Part shown: in pieces, positions 26,306-37,608 of the stretch
Numbering within the stretch: the stretch's first letter is position 1
Layout of the letters: each line of letters opens with the position of its first letter
Origin: the human T2T-CHM13v2.0 reference genome, Homo sapiens
Direction: 5' to 3' (one strand)
Assembly (NCBI RefSeq): GCF_009914755.1
Contig: NC_060934.1
Length of the DNA stretch: 64,000 nucleotides
Notes under the pieces: model-generated
The model's input: the letters and a program-made list of their open reading frames with translations, nothing else
Databases searched by the model: none
What the model was told of the DNA's origin: nothing
Program-made: the position numbers and the translations under genes

Positions 26306-28404
26306 TTGCTTCCATATTGGCTACTTAGGCAAATCCCTTATCCTCAATGAGCCTCAGTTTGTTCATCTATAAAGTAGATGATTAAATCAGATGATCTCCA
26401 ATGTTCATTTGCTCTGTGCTCTCAATGTCCATGAATCTATGAACTTGCTATGAATAAATTACAAAGGAGATTAAATTTTAGCAAAGAAGAGATTTTCTTA
26501 GGAGAAATTATCTTAAAGAAGTTGTGAAAGTCAAATAAAGGATAAAGTTCCAAATCACAGTCAGGTTTAATGGACTTCACTGATGATATAAAAGAAATCC
26601 AAAACATGCCATCTTTAAGATTTATATCAAATTGCAAATGAATATCTAAATAACATGTTGAAAAAGACATTAAGAGACAGATTAATTTTAAACTGCAGTA
26701 TGAAATTCAGCTCCTCTTTCGGTTACTAGGCAGAAGACAGGCTCAGAGTCTGTGAATCTATGTAAATGTAGCCCATGAAGGAGAAAAATTAGTTTCTTAG
26801 TGTCTCATTTTCCATCACCTGTTAGATTCAGAGATAAATTATTTAAAGCTCTGGGGAAGACTAGTACCCAATATAACTAATAAAATAATACTTTTAAATC
26901 ACTCAATCTCTCAACTCTCTTTTCTTTCAAAAGACTCAAAGCTCTTTCCACACACTGAAATGGACACTTGGGTGGGGTGGAATCAAGTGTCTTAAAGCTA
27001 GAGAAAGAACCCCTCCCACATTATTCAACTCACTCAATGTGAGCAGTGGAAGAACAAATGAGGAAAGGTACCACTTTCCACAATTTCACCCCTTTATTCA
27101 GGGGATAGCTCAGGCAAATAGTGATACCAGAAAAAGCAGATGTATTTACACACACCATGGGTTCTCCTCTACCCACATAAGCTCTAACAGAGTTATCTTC
27201 AGAATTCAAATATTAACATGTATTGTTGGTCATAAATTTTTATTTTAAAATGTTCTTAGATCTTCAGAAGCAAAACTAATAAGGATATTTTAAGAGGACT
27301 CTAGCATTCATTCATTAATTTATTCAACATTTATTGAATATCGAGTCATAGCATGCACTGAGGTAAAAGGAATATAAAATGAATAAGACAGTCCCTAATT
27401 TCTAAAAGCTCACAAACTAGAAACCAGACCTAATACTGCCAGTGTTTTTGAGAGTAATTATATTCAAGTCCAAACCACTGGAAGTAACTTGGAAGGTTTT
27501 TACTAAGAGGCTGACATCAAAGGGTAGGGAATTGCCTGATTTCTAAGAGACTTGCTAGAGAGCCACACATTAGTTACAAGCACGGGGGTCTCTCATAATA
27601 TATATTTTTTTCTCCTTCAAGCTCAGATTTCTCTGAGAAAAATTTTTAAAAATTCCATGAACTAAAATTGTTTTCTCTATGACAATAAAATGGAGGGAGG
27701 AAGAGAGAGGGGAAGGGGAAGAAATGGTATATGTAGGAAGGCAGAATTAGAAAGGAGGTTCTGAGATCTGTTTACAAAGTGCTCAGAAAGCAGGTGATGT
27801 CTTCTTTCTGGTAAATTATGGGCAGAAAGTTTAAGAGCTGAGGGAAGCTTGCAAAGTGCTGATATAAAAATGAAACCATAATCAAACACAAAAGACAGAA
27901 GATCTCTAATTCTTATAGAAAATTTAGTTTATAGTGTTGGCAATGATTAAATAAATAGCTAAATTTTTATTAGAAGGTATTTCATTTGTACTTAAATGTT
28001 TATATTTTCTCCAAACTTGCTCTTTGTTATAACTTTTAAGTCATGTACAAATAATCGTAGTGGGAAAATCACAGATGCATACTTAGAATTGAGTTTGTTA
28101 TATCAATAAAACATCTTTTAAGGACAATTAAAAATCAATAGCAGTTTTGTTTGAGAACTTTCATTCCAACTACAGCAGGGAAGATGGCCGGGGGACTGAA
28201 TAGTGGAGATTGAGAAAGAAAGAGAATCTAGGAGATCACTGCAATACCATAGCCACAAAATAGGCTTTTGATTGCTTGGCTAGGGAAGATGAAAAAAATG
28301 CAAGATGACTGCAAGTTTTCAATAGGAAGGAAGTTGTGAGTAATAATATAATTGAAATAAATAGATCTTAAAACAGAGCAAAACTTCTGAGAAAATTTCT
28401 CAGG

Positions 28405-28901
28405 ACTTGACTCAAATGTCACTTTTTCAGTGAAGTCTTGTGTGGCAGGAAACAAAAATGGAATGATCACTGCACCATTTCCTCTTCCTGGGCAGACAAA
28501 AGAACATTTCCTGGATTCCCTTGTAGTTAGGGTGGGAGCATATGACTTAGTTTTGGCCAGTGGGATGTATGTAGGAGTGATGTGCCACTTCCAGGCCAAG
28601 AAACTTGCTGAATACTGATCTACCTTTATCTCTTTCTGCCCCTAGAAACAATGTCTCTGTGGCAGCATCACGATATGTAGGAAGCCTGGAATCCTGAGTC
28701 ACTAGATGACACGATGAGCCACCTATATCAGACTTATTCTGAACAAAAGCTAAACTTTTGTTGGGCTAAACCACTAACATCTAGATTTAGTGCTACAGCA
28801 TAGCATAGCTTATTTTTATTAATACATCTTGCTTGGCTACCATACCCAAAATTTCCACAAGCCTCTGCCCCTATGAAAGAAAAACACCCATATATCCACT
28901 T
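28405..28901 (+). mobile_element. L2 3' region, 5' part (split first by MLT1, then by the L1HS plus transduction block)
   Basis: ctcaaatgtcactttttcagtgaagtcttg resumes after the MLT1 as cttggctaccatacccaaaatt..., and continues again at 36590. Confidence 0.65.
28441..28826 (+). mobile_element. MaLR solo LTR (MLT1I/J-like) with 5-bp TSD
   Basis: TG...CA ends (tgtggcagg...taataca); tcttg at 28436-28440 and 28827-28831; MLT1 motif gtgatgtgccacttccaggcc. Confidence 0.85.
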
Positions 28902-28921
28902 TTTTTTTTTTTTTTTTTTTT
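28891..28921 (-). repeat. Distal TSD (tatatccactt) plus second poly(A) tail of the L1HS insertion
   Basis: tatatccactt at 28891-28901 is identical to 36590-36600; followed by a pure T run to 28921. Confidence 0.88.
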
Positions 28922-30520
28922 GATTTTTAAATTTGGTATTGGAGTAAGATAGGCTTTCCTAAGCACAAATGAAAAAGAACTGAACACTGAAAAATATTTG
29001 ACTTTATGACAGTTTAAATTTATACATTAAATAAACAGTGGCAAAATTACAAAACAAATAAACTGAAAATAAATGTTTAAAACTTATATGAGTAATGGAT
29101 ATCATATCGTTAACATAAACGAAGTGCTAACCAGAAAGACGTACACCTAAATAGAAAAATTGGCAAAAGACGTAAGCAAGTAATTTATAAAAGAAAAAAT
29201 ATAAAAATCCCAAGAAACATATAAAAATACATATTTCAACTTTACTTGTAATCAAAGAAATATAAATTAAAACATTTTCTCCACCAAATTGGCAGAATAA
29301 TTTAATATCCAATATTAATGAGGAAGAGAATGAACAATCAGCTTTTAGTCTGCTGGTGGGAATGTAACCCAGCACCTACCTGAAGGGCAACTTGGCAATG
29401 TATATCCAAATCTTGAAAAATTTATATCGTTGGATCTAGTCATTTCACTTCTAGAAATTTATCCAAAAGAACTAATTAGAGATGTGTACAAAGATTTATA
29501 TATATGGATGTTTTTTGTTGAAATATTTACATTTTCAAATTGGATTAATCTAAGTAACCCAAAATAGAACATTGGCTAAAATAATTTATGGTACATTAAT
29601 ATGATGAAATACTATGCAGAAATTTTTTAAAAAGTATTTTAAGAAACATTTAGCTATTTGAGAAAATGTTGATTAATGTGAAGTAGAAGTACATAATGAA
29701 ACATTACATAAAATGTAACCTTAATTTTATAAGAAGATACTATTTATAACACTTATATGTACATATATTTACATTATATATGGAAGACTAAAAAAACCCA
29801 AAATCTTGTATATATGTATATATTTATCAATCATATATTATACATTTAACAATAAAATCTAAAAGAAATTTAAAATAAAATACACCCAAGTGTTAGACAT
29901 TATTATAGTTGGGAATTAATTTAATTTTTTTCCTGAAAACCAAAAACTATAAAACGTTGCTGAGGGCATTTAATGAAGACTGGAATAAATGGAAAGATAT
30001 ATGATGTTGATGGGTTGGAAGATTCAATATGGTAAAAATAGCAATTCCCCCCAAATTGATTTTTAGATTCAATAAAATCCCAATCAATTTCCCAGCATGT
30101 TTGTGTGTGCATGTTTGTGTATGTGGAAGGAGAGAAGACAATTGGTGTAAAATTTATACAGAAGTGCAAACATCCAAGAATATTCAAGACTGTGTTAGAG
30201 AAGAAATGAAGTTGAAGATTTTACATAAGTAGATGTCAAGACTTATTATAAAGCTATAATAATTAAGCCAATGTAATGTTGATGAGAGGAGAGACATATT
30301 GGCCAGTGGAATAGACTAGAGTCCAGAAACAGATCCACACATATTTAGTCAGCTAGGGCCACTGGTAGGGTATGTAGGACCCTGGGAAAATATGTTCTGT
30401 AGGGCTCCTGACTATATAAATAATTTGATTAAAATGTATTACAAAATGTATGGGCCCAAATGAGACTTAAGAATTTTTGATGAAGAGTTAGAATAATGGG
30501 TTGAGTGGGTCTACTTCCCT
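28922..30520 (-). other. L1-mediated 3' transduced segment (~1.6 kb; old L1M fragments and a hAT-like fragment)
   Basis: Lies between the L1HS poly(A) tract (30521-30572) and a second poly(A)/TSD; the flanking L2 is continuous when the block is removed. Confidence 0.82.
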
Positions 30521-30780
30521 GTTTGTTTATTTATTTATTTTTTTTTATTTTTTTTTTAATGTTTTTTTTTTTTTTATTATACTCTAAGTTTTAGGGAACA
30601 TGTGCACATTGTGCAGGTTAGTTACATATGTATACATGTGCCATGCTGGTGCGCTGCACCCACTAACGTGTCATCTAGCATTAGGTATATCTCCCAATGC
30701 TATCCCTCCCCCCTCCCCCGACCCCACCACAGTCCCCAGAGTGTGATATTCCCCTTCCTGTGTCCATGTGATCTCATTGT

Positions 30781-34603
<3,823 letters not shown>

Positions 34604-34666
34604 TATGATGTTAGCTGGTGATTTTGCTCATTAGTTGATGCAGTTTCTTCCTAGTCTCGATGGTCT

Positions 34667-35683
34667 TTACATTTTGGCATGATTTTGCAGCGGCTGGTAC
34701 CGGTTGTTCCTTTCCATGTTTAGCGCTTCCTTCAGGAGCTCTTTTAGGGCAGGCCTGGTGGTGACAAAATCTCTCAGCATTTGCTTGTCTATAAAGTATT
34801 TTATTTCTCCTTCACTTATGAAGCTTTGTTTGGCTGGATATGAAATTCTGGGTTGAAAATTCTTTTCTTTAAGAATGTTGAATATTGGCCCCCACTCTCT
34901 TCTGGCTTGTAGGGTTTCTGCCGAGAGATCCGCTGTTAGTCTGATGGGCTTTCCTTTGAGGGTAACCCGACCTTTCTCTCTGGCTGCCCTTAACATTTTT
35001 TCCTTCATTTCAACTTTGGTGAATCTGACAATTATGTGTCTTGGAGTTGCTCTTCTCGAGGAGTATCTTTGTGGCATTCTCTGTATTTCCTGAATCTGAA
35101 CGTTGGCCTGCCTTGCTAGATTGGGGAAGTTCTCCTGGATAATATCCTGCAGAGTGTTTTCCAACTTGGTTCCATTCTCCACATCACTTTCAGGTACACC
35201 AATCAGACGTAGATTTGGTCTTTTCACATAGTCCCATATTTCTTGGAGGCTTTGCTCATTTCTTTTTATTCTTTTTTCTCTAAACTTCCCTTCTCGCTTC
35301 ATTTCATTCATTTCATCTTCCATTGCTGATACCCTTTCTTCCAGTTGATCGCATCGGCTCCTGAGGCTTCTGCATTCTTCACGTAGTTCTCGAGCCTTGG
35401 TTTTCAGCTCCATCAGCTCCTTTAAGCACTTCTCTGTATTGGTTATTCTAGTTATACAATCTTCTAAATTTTTTTCAAAGTTTTCAACTTCTTTGCCTTT
35501 GGTTTGAATGTCCTCCCGTAGCTCAGAGTAATTTGATCATCTGAAGCCTTCTTCTCTCAGCTCGTCAAAATCATTCTCCATCCAGCTTTGTTCTGTTGCT
35601 GGTGAGGAACTGCGTTCCTTTGGAGGAGGAGAGGCGCTCTGCGTTTTAGAGTTTCCAGTTTTTCTGTTCTGTTTTTTCCCCAT
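34667..35683 (-). pseudogene. ORF1: L1 ORF1p with premature stop R49* and an altered YPAKLS motif
   Basis: ATG at 35683 (MGKKQNRK...), 1017-nt frame; TGA at 35537-35539; YPAKQS in place of YPAKLS. Confidence 0.93.
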
Positions 35684-36589
35684 CTTTGTGGTTTTATCTA
35701 CTTTTGGTCTTTGATGATGGTGATGTACAGATGGGTTTTCGGTGTAGATGTCCTTTCTGGTTGTTAGTTTTCCTTCTAACAGACAGGACCCTCAGCTGCA
35801 GGTCTGTTGGAATACCCTGCCGTGTGAGGTGTCAGTGTGCCCCTGCTGGGGGGTGCCTCCCAGTTAGGCTGCTCGGGGGTCAGGGGTCAGGGACCCACTT
35901 GAGGAGGCAGTCTGCCCGTTCTCAGATCTCCAGCTGCGTGCTGGGAGAACCACTGCTCTCTTCAAAGCTGTCAGACAGGGACACTTAAGTCTGCAGAGGT
36001 TACTGCTGTCTTTTTGTTTGTCTGTGCCCTGCCCCCAGAGGTGGAGCCTACAGAGGCAGGCAGGCCTCCTTGAGCTGTGGTGGGCTCCACCCAGTTCGAG
36101 CTTCCCGGCTGCTTTGTTTATGTAAGCAAGCCTGGGCAATGGCAGGCGCCCCTCCCCCAGCCTCGTTGCCGCCTTGCAGTTTGATCTCAGACTGCTGTGC
36201 TAGCAATTAGCGAGATTCCGTGGGCGTAGGACCCTCTGAGCCAGGTGTGGGATATCGTCTCGTGGTGCGCTGTTTCTTAAGCCGGTCTGAAAAGCGCAAT
36301 ATTTGGGTGGGAGTGACCCGATTTTCCAGGTGCGTCCGTCACCCCTTTCTTTGACTCGGAAAGGGAACTCCCTGACCCCTTGCGCTTCCCAGGTGAGGCA
36401 ATGCCTCGCCCTGCTTCGGCTCGCGCACGGTGCGCACACACACTGGCCTGCACCCACTGTCTGGCACTCCCTAGTGAGATGAACCCGGTACCTCAGATGG
36501 AAATGCAGAAATCACCCGTCTTCTGCGTCGCTCACGCTGGGAGCTGTAGACCGGAGCTGTTCCTATTCGGCCATCTTGGCTCCTCCTCC
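35684..36589 (-). promoter_or_regulatory. L1HS 5' UTR: CpG-rich internal sense promoter and antisense promoter; YY1 site intact
   Basis: High CpG density; AAGATGGCC (YY1) at 36569-36577 on the minus strand. Promoter function is established knowledge for L1HS 5' UTRs. Confidence 0.85.
36139..36354 (+). pseudogene. ORF0: L1 antisense ORF0 with premature stop Q24*
   Basis: ATG at 36139 gives MAGAPPPASLPPCSLISDCCASN, then TAG at 36208-36210 where ORF0 has CAG. End coordinate inferred from the 71-aa length. Confidence 0.8.
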
Positions 36590-36810
36590 TATATCCACTT
36601 CTTATCCTTCTCACTTTTTTTTTCTTTTTAGCACTTGTCACTCTATAACTTACAGTAAATTTTACCTATTTATGTTATTATCTCTCTTCCCCAGTAGAAT
36701 GTAAGCTCCATGAGGACAGAAATTTGTATCTGTTTGGTTTGTTACAGCCCGGTGATACAGGGCTTGGAACATGGCAGACATTCAATAGATATTTGTTGGA
36801 TAAATGAATA
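36590..36810 (+). mobile_element. L2 3' end (continuation of 28405-28901), beginning with the proximal TSD
   Basis: tagcacttgtcact...tagaatgtaagctccatgaggacag...caatagatatttgttggataaatgaat is an L2 terminus. Confidence 0.8.
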
Positions 36811-36984
36811 TAAAGATGGTAACTTTAGCTGTGTGTAAAAAATGGTCAGACCTTAAGTGGAGAAGTACTACGGGGAACTGTGAATGCTAGTATGAGAGAT
36901 CCAGAGACACATGCTTGGGACACATTAACATAGTTGGAACAGTCGTAGTTGAAATCATAAGAATGAGTTCCTTGAGAGGATGAA

Positions 36985-37392
36985 TGTTGCAGGATGGGTT
37001 TTTCAAGAGCAAATCCTGAGTAAGAGTCTGGGTGTTTATTAAGGATCGACAACTTTGAAAGGAAGCAGACTGGTTAGAGAAAGAAGTCAAATTGCAATGC
37101 AGGCTGGAAATACCTCAGCCAAACTGGTAGAAAACTGTGAAGTAAATGCTGCCTGTCAGAGTTGTCCTGAAATAGACCCAAATAGTTGGACCTTTATAGC
37201 CCCATCTCATTCAGTCACTGATGTGGGCTGTCTTGAGTAGGGCTGACCTTGGATGAGGCTACTCTCTGCAGATAAGGCAGATCCTAAAGGAGATGACAGC
37301 CGGAAGCTGTCTATTGACCTCATTTCTTATAGCTGGATGGCAAGTACTTTTTTTAAGGGAAATATGAGCAGTATATCTCCATATCTACCACA
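36985..37392 (-). mobile_element. ERVL solo LTR (LTR16/LTR33-like)
   Basis: TG...CA ends, antisense AATAAA (gtttatt) and ERVL-like body. Subfamily uncertain. Confidence 0.55.
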
Positions 37393-37416
37393 AATGGGGA
37401 AAAGAAGGCTAATGGC

Positions 37417-37608
37417 TAGAGTTGCCAGATTTAGCAAGTATAAATATAAGACACCCATTCAAATTTAAATTTCAGATAAATAGCAAAGTGAGTTATTAAT
37501 ATAAATATTCCCACGTAATAGTTGAATCACAATTATGCTAACAAATTATTTGTTGTTTATTTAAAATTCAAATTTAACTGAGTGTCCTGTGTTTATTTGT
37601 CAGCTCTA
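37417..37608. mobile_element. MER53 palindromic hAT MITE with 8-bp TSD
   Basis: tagagttgccagatttagc...aaatttaaatttcagataaa / tttatttaaaattcaaattt...cagctcta; TSD ctaatggc and ctaaaggc. Confidence 0.85.

What the first reader, a model, noticed from the sequence alone, without database searches (positions are those of the whole stretch)
28891..36600. Full-length pre-Ta L1HS carrying a ~1.6-kb 3' transduction from another locus
Seen: the 11-mer tatatccactt next to the L1 5' end (36590-36600) is absent beside the L1's own A-tail (30521-30572). It reappears at 28891-28901, abutting a second, pure poly(T) run that ends at 28921. Removing 28902-36600 rejoins one L2 fragment (…ccatacccaaaatt…tatatccactt|cttatcc…tagcacttgtcac…). 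Established: read-through of the weak L1 poly(A) signal mobilises 3' flank and gives TSD-L1-polyA-flank-polyA-TSD. Inference: 28922-30520 is copied from downstream of a source L1HS and tags the parent element. Standard repeat annotation would label it only as ancient L1M/hAT fragments and hide that it is a young duplication.
Basis: partly seen in the sequence, partly recalled or inferred. Interest (0 to 1): 0.85.

Follow-up and report, generated by a model that had tools for sequence, protein, structure and literature searches.

The report
Ordinary L1 insertion with 3' transduction
A full-length but broken human L1 retrotransposon in an HPSE2 intron carried 1.6 kb of chromosome 18 DNA with it when it inserted, which is a textbook L1 3' transduction and is ordinary.

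Summary
TATATCCACTT occurs only twice in the window (28891-28901 and 36590-36600). One copy abuts the 5' end of a minus-strand L1 and the other abuts a pure 22-T run (28900-28921). The interpretation also holds. Window 28921-30531 has one other near-identical copy in the same assembly, at chr18:22773849-22775459, with 7 mismatches and no gaps in 1611 nt. Similarity stops exactly at both ends. On the L1 side, chr18 runs straight on with no L1, so CHM13 carries an empty source site. On the other side, chr18 shows a CA cleavage site followed by a GT-rich stretch.

- The transduced segment reaches 30531, not 30520, and the internal A-tail is 30532-30572.
- No source L1 exists in this assembly, and no sibling copy carries the tag.
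- The L1 (30573-36589, 6017 nt) has a canonical 5' end and the ACG pre-Ta mark, but it cannot code. ORF1 has an in-frame stop and ORF2 a frameshift.
- The "rejoined L2" claim could not be shown.

Divergence of 0.43% suggests an age of roughly 1-9 My. The mechanism is well known and interest is low.

The parts
28891..28901 (.). Target-site duplication, the copy at the 3' side of the insertion in L1 sense
   Evidence: one of only two copies of the 11-mer in the window.
28902..28921 (-). Terminal pure poly(A), read as T on the + strand. It has 19-22 untemplated A, because 28900-28901 may belong to the duplication and 28921 matches an A at chr18.
   Evidence: T run 28900-28921; the chr18 alignment starts at 28921.
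28922..30531 (-). 3'-transduced segment copied from chr18:22773849-22775458 of the same assembly. GC is 28%. It contains ancient L1 ORF2 remnants on the + strand at 29342-29624 and 29909-30321.
   Evidence: only one other near-identical locus; 7 mismatches, 0 gaps in 1611 nt; sharp boundaries; first 152 nt found only at chr18 and chr10; tblastn with the window's own ORF2.
30532..30572 (-). Internal, interrupted A-rich tail of the L1, inherited from the source copy. In sense it reads A14 CATT A10 T A9 T AAATA.
30573..36589 (-). Full-length L1 body of 6017 nt, in the same orientation as HPSE2. The ACG pre-Ta mark in sense is CGT at 30667-30669.
   Evidence: 19 of 39 other copies start matching exactly at 36589 and 35 of 39 within 3-4 nt of it; 39 other copies are 98-99% identical over the 3' 869 nt. 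for ACG.
34667..35683 (-). ORF1 (1017 nt span), interrupted by one in-frame stop at 35537-35539 (codon 49)
30781..34603 (-). ORF2 span of 3823 nt, not a multiple of 3. A frameshift lies in an A-run near 34400; the N-terminal 77 codons are in one frame and the remaining about 1200 codons in another.
36590..36600 (.). Target-site duplication, the copy at the 5' side of the L1

Best explanation
This is a single germline L1 retrotransposition event with 3' transduction. A pre-Ta-type L1 once sat on the + strand of chr18 immediately before CHM13 position 22773849. Its transcript ran through the element's own poly(A) signal and A-rich tail and continued 1.6 kb into the flank. It was cleaved at a CA that lies 11 nt after the start of a weak TTTAAA hexamer and just before a GT-rich stretch, and was then polyadenylated. 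Target-primed reverse transcription inserted this RNA into an HPSE2 intron on chr10. The result is TSD, L1, old tail, chr18 flank, new poly(A), TSD (7688 nt, window 28902-36589). Shown: the anatomy, the donor locus, the sharp boundaries and the empty donor site in this assembly. Inferred: that an L1 once occupied the chr18 site (it is now lost or polymorphic), the use of that poly(A) site, and the age. The daughter copy has since lost both reading frames.
For: (1) An 11-bp duplication brackets the whole composite and nothing brackets the L1 alone. (2) Window 28921-30531 equals chr18 22775459-22773849 with 7 mismatches and 0 gaps in 1611 nt. This is the only other near-identical copy: of 41 matches (40 of 1239 candidates scored), the other 39 are 82% identical or less and confined to query 1011-1431. 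(3) Similarity ends exactly at the internal tail and at the terminal poly(A), while chr18 continues with unrelated sequence on both sides and has no poly(A) or duplication. chr18 is therefore the donor and chr10 the copy. (4) In L1 sense, the chr18 sequence just past the copied end reads GCTGTGTGTTTTCTGC. The copy ends in ...TTTAAAAATCA, and only one AATAAA occurs in the segment, at its very start. (5) The internal tail is interrupted while the terminal tail is pure A. This fits a tail encoded in the source DNA versus a newly added one. (6) The chr18 junction on the primed strand reads TTTATT/AT, which resembles the L1 endonuclease preference (that preference is recalled knowledge).
Against: No L1 is present at the chr18 site in this assembly, so the source element itself is not observed. 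The chr10 target on the nicked strand (ACTT/CT) is a poor match to the recalled TTTT/AA preference. The poly(A) hexamer is only a weak variant (the list of variants is recalled). 4 of the 7 differences are transversions, which is unusual but uninformative at n=7. Ape orthologues and other human haplotypes could not be examined.
Confidence: 0.93

Rival explanations
1. The immediate parent was not the chr18 element but a now-absent daughter of it that already carried the same 1.6-kb tag. That daughter was re-transcribed and terminated at the same downstream site (a two-step lineage).
For: The chr18 site is empty in CHM13, so nothing ties the chr10 copy directly to chr18 rather than to an intermediate.
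Against: No other copy of the tag exists in this assembly (with 13 of 13 candidates scored and only chr18 and chr10 at 100%). A daughter would carry a terminal poly(A) that should then appear inside the chr10 copy followed by more flank, and it does not.
Confidence: 0.04
2. This is a chimeric retrocopy made by template switching. L1 reverse transcriptase started on a polyadenylated chr18 transcript and jumped to the 3' end of an L1 RNA, without the two ever being one transcript.
For: This route would also give one duplication, one terminal poly(A) and an L1 joined tail-first to foreign sequence.
Against: The chr18 segment begins at a T-rich/A junction typical of an L1 integration site. The internal tail is interrupted (A14 CATT A10 T A9 T AAATA), as expected of an old genomic tail, while the terminal tail of the same age at chr10 is still pure. 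It would also need an independent transcript starting exactly there.
Confidence: 0.02
3. Two independent events or a DNA-level duplication placed chr18 sequence next to an L1, and the 11-mer repeat is chance.
For: 2 of 100 shuffles of the window gave two copies of an 11-mer like this one.
Against: The repeat abuts exactly the L1 5' end and exactly a pure 22-T run. The copied block starts exactly at the L1 tail and ends exactly at that run. The L1 alone has no duplication.
Confidence: 0.01

Closest known systems
L1-mediated 3' transduction, as described in the abstract of PMC9311842. The classic reports by Moran 1999, Goodier 2000 and Pickeral 2000 are recalled; the PMC id tried for Pickeral 2000, like that for Szak 2003, was not held.
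   Same: Read-through of the L1 terminator, an internal L1 tail, carried flank, a second poly(A), and one target-site duplication around everything. A donor locus is identifiable by near-identity.
   Different: Nothing in kind. The 1.6-kb length exceeds the 7-997 nt range that short-read surveys report (PMC9311842 abstract). The donor site is empty in this assembly.
L1HS pre-Ta subfamily
   Same: ACG at the 3'UTR diagnostic trinucleotide (its meaning from passages of PMC7026601). The element is 98-99% identical to many young copies.
   Different: Only this one diagnostic site was checked. Both reading frames are broken, unlike the few pre-Ta copies reported as still competent (PMC7026601 passage).
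Somatically active germline source L1s catalogued in cancer genomes (PMC7058536)
   Same: Source elements are traced through unique downstream tags, as done here.
   Different: The held part of that paper's supplement has no 18q11 entry. Its '18q' passages shown name 18q21.32 only (the file was cut when stored).

Membership tests
L1 3' transduction | An L1 3' end with its own A-rich tail lies inside the insertion, followed by non-L1 sequence that ends in a second poly(A) | tested here: met
   tail at 30532-30572, segment at 28922-30531, pure A run read as T at 28900-28921.
L1 3' transduction | One target-site duplication flanks L1 plus carried segment, and none flanks the L1 alone | tested here: met
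   11-mer, exactly 2 copies in the window; only T-run words shared beside the internal tail.
L1 3' transduction | The carried segment is near-identical to a unique donor locus, and the match starts at the L1 tail and stops at the poly(A) addition site | tested here: met
   chr18:22773849-22775459, 99.57%, sharp ends.
L1 3' transduction | A source L1 lies immediately upstream of the donor segment | tested here: not met
   the chr18 site in this assembly is empty. One search finds only an 85%-identical old L1 3' fragment 2.9 kb away. Presence in other human haplotypes cannot be tested here, so this lowers direct proof of the source, not the mechanism.
L1 3' transduction | A polyadenylation signal and downstream element at the donor end | tested here: inconclusive
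   a TTTAAA hexamer starts 11 nt before the end, the cleavage site is CA, and a GT-rich stretch lies just downstream at chr18. There is no canonical AATAAA nearby. The hexamer list is recalled.
L1 3' transduction | Insertion absent from ape orthologues or from human empty alleles | not testable with these tools
   Only the window's own assembly is held.
L1HS pre-Ta | ACG at the diagnostic 3'UTR trinucleotide | tested here: met
   (CGT at 30667-30669 on +, ACG in sense); passages of PMC7026601. The exact sequence context of the site is recalled.
Retrotransposition-competent L1 | Two intact reading frames | tested here: not met
   ORF1 has an in-frame stop at 35537-35539 and ORF2 has a frameshift near 34400.

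The most novel reading that the evidence does not exclude
The progenitor at chr18:22773848/9 (18q11.2 by my rough mapping) is not extinct. It still segregates in some human populations as an unrecognised pre-Ta source element missing from CHM13. The 1.6-kb tag preserved on chr10 would then allow its lineage to be traced in pangenomes and tumours.
Probability: 0.08. Interest if true: 0.35.

Novelty: new member of a known kind. Interest (0 to 1): 0.18.

Why it matters
The finding matters little beyond bookkeeping. It shows that 1.6 kb annotated as old repeats in an HPSE2 intron is a young inter-chromosomal duplicate. It also pins the position, strand and tail of a parent L1 that CHM13 does not carry. 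This could help anyone building L1 source-offspring maps, or interpreting multi-mapping reads between chr10 and chr18. The element is non-coding-competent, and nothing suggests a functional consequence.

Tried and rejected
**L2 rejoining.**
- The right flank (36608-36823) belongs to an old multi-copy repeat: one search returned 40 matches, and 40 of 71 candidates were scored.
- The left flank (28500-28901) gave only 2 weak non-self hits, both at 28517-28596.
- I took 13 copies of the right-flank repeat with 400 nt upstream. Blastn matched the left flank only by words of 12-17 nt at E 0.24-0.83. A profile of the 13 copies matched only 36610-36739.
- Those copies are themselves barely alignable upstream, at 36-49% pairwise identity, so the test is uninformative.
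- A summed local-alignment test gave z=3.1 for the left flank but also z=3.1 for a control stretch 300 nt further left, and -0.6 for a control on the right. This is inconclusive.

**5' transduction.** One hit (chr22:29124690) ran 40 nt into the 5' flank. One search shows that this one and two others (3 of the 4 hits starting outside query 49-55) are chance purine-rich matches. The fourth was not examined.

**Siblings.** None were found. Tags shorter than about 60 nt would be missed.

**Literature.**
- No paper holds both HPSE2 and L1HS.
- '18q11.2' with LINE-1 and transduction gave 1 unrelated paper, and HPSE2 with LINE-1 and transduction gave 1 unrelated paper.
- PMC13192797 has no chr18, chr10 or HPSE2 mention in its main text.
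- The PMC ids for Szak 2003 and Pickeral 2000 are not held.
- Supplement access closed, so the catalogue tables of PMC9311842 were not seen.
Full report
**What is in the sequence.**
- A LINE-1 lies on the minus strand. Its first base is at 36589 and its last base before the A-rich tail is at 30573, a body of 6017 nt.
- Directly beyond the 5' end, at 36590-36600, is TATATCCACTT. The same 11-mer occurs once more in the 64-kb window, at 28891-28901, and nowhere else on either strand. The chance expectation is 0.11, and 2 of 100 shuffles gave two or more copies.
- The second copy runs into a pure run of 22 T at 28900-28921. This is one of only two T runs of 15 or more in the window.
- Beside the L1's own tail nothing resembles the 5' flank except T runs.
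Only the tail coordinates need adjusting (see the next paragraph).

**Where the extra 1.6 kb comes from.**
- I searched the window's own assembly with 28922-30520. The search returned 41 matches, with 40 of 1239 first-look candidates scored.
- Two matches are full-length and near-identical: the query itself and chr18:22773860-22775458 on the minus strand. The other 39 are 67-82% identical and cover only query 1011-1431, which is an old interspersed repeat.
- Blastn of window 28001-37500 against 14 kb of that chr18 region aligns window 28921-30531 to chr18 22775459-22773849 with 7 mismatches and no gaps in 1611 nt, or 99.565%.
- The printed boundaries show that similarity stops abruptly at both ends.
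- At the low-coordinate end of the window segment, chr10 goes into the T run and the 11-mer, while chr18 goes on with unrelated sequence.
- At the other end, chr10 goes into the A-rich tail and the L1 3' end, while chr18 continues ...GTTTGTTTATT|ATCCAATCAG... with no L1.
- chr18 has neither a poly(A) nor a duplication. It is therefore the donor, chr10 holds the copy, and the chr18 site in CHM13 is the empty state of the site that the source L1 must once have occupied.
The carried segment is 28922-30531 and the internal tail is 30532-30572.

**How the transcript ended.**
- In L1 sense the carried segment ends ...CCAAATTTAAAAATCA. At chr18 the next bases are GCTGTGTGTTTTCTGC.
- That gives a CA cleavage site with a GT-rich downstream stretch, and a TTTAAA hexamer starting 11 nt before the end.
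- The only canonical AATAAA in the segment is at its first base. Three ATTAAA hexamers further in were passed over.
- Reading TTTAAA as a weak poly(A) signal rests on recalled lists of hexamer variants, so I mark this step as inferred.
- The internal tail is interrupted (A14 CATT A10 T A9 T AAATA) while the terminal tail is pure A. This fits an old tail transcribed from source DNA and a new tail added to the read-through RNA.

**The element itself.**
- I searched with a query spanning the 5' end plus 51 nt of flank. Of 39 non-self hits (40 of 2431 candidates scored), 19 begin exactly at the base matching window 36589, and 35 begin within query positions 49-55. The 5' end is therefore the family's canonical terminus.
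- Three of the four hits starting outside 49-55 were inspected. They are chance extensions through purine-rich flanks, not a 5' transduction.
- The 3' 869 nt is 98-99% identical to 39 other copies (40 of 3929 candidates scored).
- The 3'UTR carries ACG in sense (CGT at 30667-30669). Passages of PMC7026601 give this as diagnostic of the pre-Ta subfamily, against ACA for Ta and GAG for L1PA2 and older. Which trinucleotide in the 3'UTR is the diagnostic one I know from recall. No other diagnostic site was checked.
- The element is not coding-competent. ORF1 (35683-34667) has one in-frame stop at 35537-35539.
- ORF2 (34603-30781, 3823 nt) changes frame in an A-run near 34400.

**Age.**
- Seven differences in 1611 nt is 0.43%. 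Three are transitions, four are transversions, and one sits at a CpG.
- With recalled human mutation rates of 0.5-1.0 x 10^-9 per site per year acting on both copies, this gives about 2-4 My. The Poisson range is roughly 1-9 My.
- That is compatible with a human-specific pre-Ta insertion but does not prove it. No ape sequence was available.

**Relatives of the tag.** The first 152 nt of the carried segment occur at 100% identity only at chr18 and chr10. All 13 of 13 candidates were scored, and the other 11 are 72-86% identical. CHM13 thus holds no sibling from the same source with a tag of detectable length.

**What the carried DNA is.**
- It is AT-rich, with 28% GC.
- It holds two non-collinear remnants of an ancient L1 ORF2 on the plus strand, at 29342-29624 and 29909-30321. 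These were detected by tblastn with the window's own ORF2, at E 1e-6 and 1.5e-18.
The hAT part of that remark was not tested.

**Claims not settled.**
- Whether the two flanks rejoin into one L2 fragment could not be shown.
- The right flank from about 36608 belongs to an old repeat family.
- The left flank gave no usable matches, and the comparison copies do not align with each other upstream.
- A summed alignment test scored a control stretch as high as the left flank.
- My impression that the right flank is an L2 3' end is recall only.

**Context.** According to the hub's annotation, HPSE2 is on the minus strand and has no exon in the window. The composite therefore sits in an intron, in the same orientation as the gene.

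**Literature.**
- The mechanism is standard. The abstract of PMC9311842 describes it, and the search listing for PMC13009371 states that about 25% of insertions carry a transduction.
- I found no main-text mention of this locus. There were 0 papers with HPSE2 and L1HS, and one unrelated paper each for '18q11.2' or HPSE2 combined with LINE-1 and transduction.
- The held, truncated supplement of PMC7058536 lists no 18q11 source.
This event may well be listed in tables I could not see.

**Verdict.** Both the observation and the interpretation are right, with small corrections. The event is an ordinary, old germline L1 3' transduction. Its parent is absent from this assembly, and the copy itself is dead.

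Noticed in passing
window 36608-36823: The right flank of the insertion belongs to an old multi-copy interspersed repeat, 68-93% identical to 39 other loci. By recall it looks like an L2 3' end.
   Followed up: partly
L010 (chr18:22775460-22775530) and L009 (chr18:22770438-22770906): At the donor locus a sequence that I recognise from memory as an Alu 5' end starts about 35 nt past the cleavage site. An 85%-identical old L1 3' fragment lies 2.9 kb on the other side. Neither takes part in the event.
   Followed up: no
window 28902-36589: The 7.7-kb composite lies in the same orientation as HPSE2 (minus strand) inside an intron. Sense-oriented full-length L1s in introns are said to be disfavoured (recalled), but nothing here was tested.
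   Followed up: no
window 29342-29624 and 29909-30321: Two ancient L1 ORF2 remnants sit on the plus strand in non-collinear order: the later ORF2 part lies at the lower coordinates. They are probably two separate old fragments.
   Followed up: partly
window 36612-36623 and 28897-28908: A 12-nt shared word CACTTTTTTTTT was found. It is a T-run coincidence and not an alternative target-site duplication.
   Followed up: yes
window 28891-28901 / 36590-36601: On the nicked strand the chr10 target reads ACTT/CT, a poor match to the recalled TTTT/AA endonuclease preference. The inferred chr18 source site, TATT/AT, is closer.
   Followed up: no
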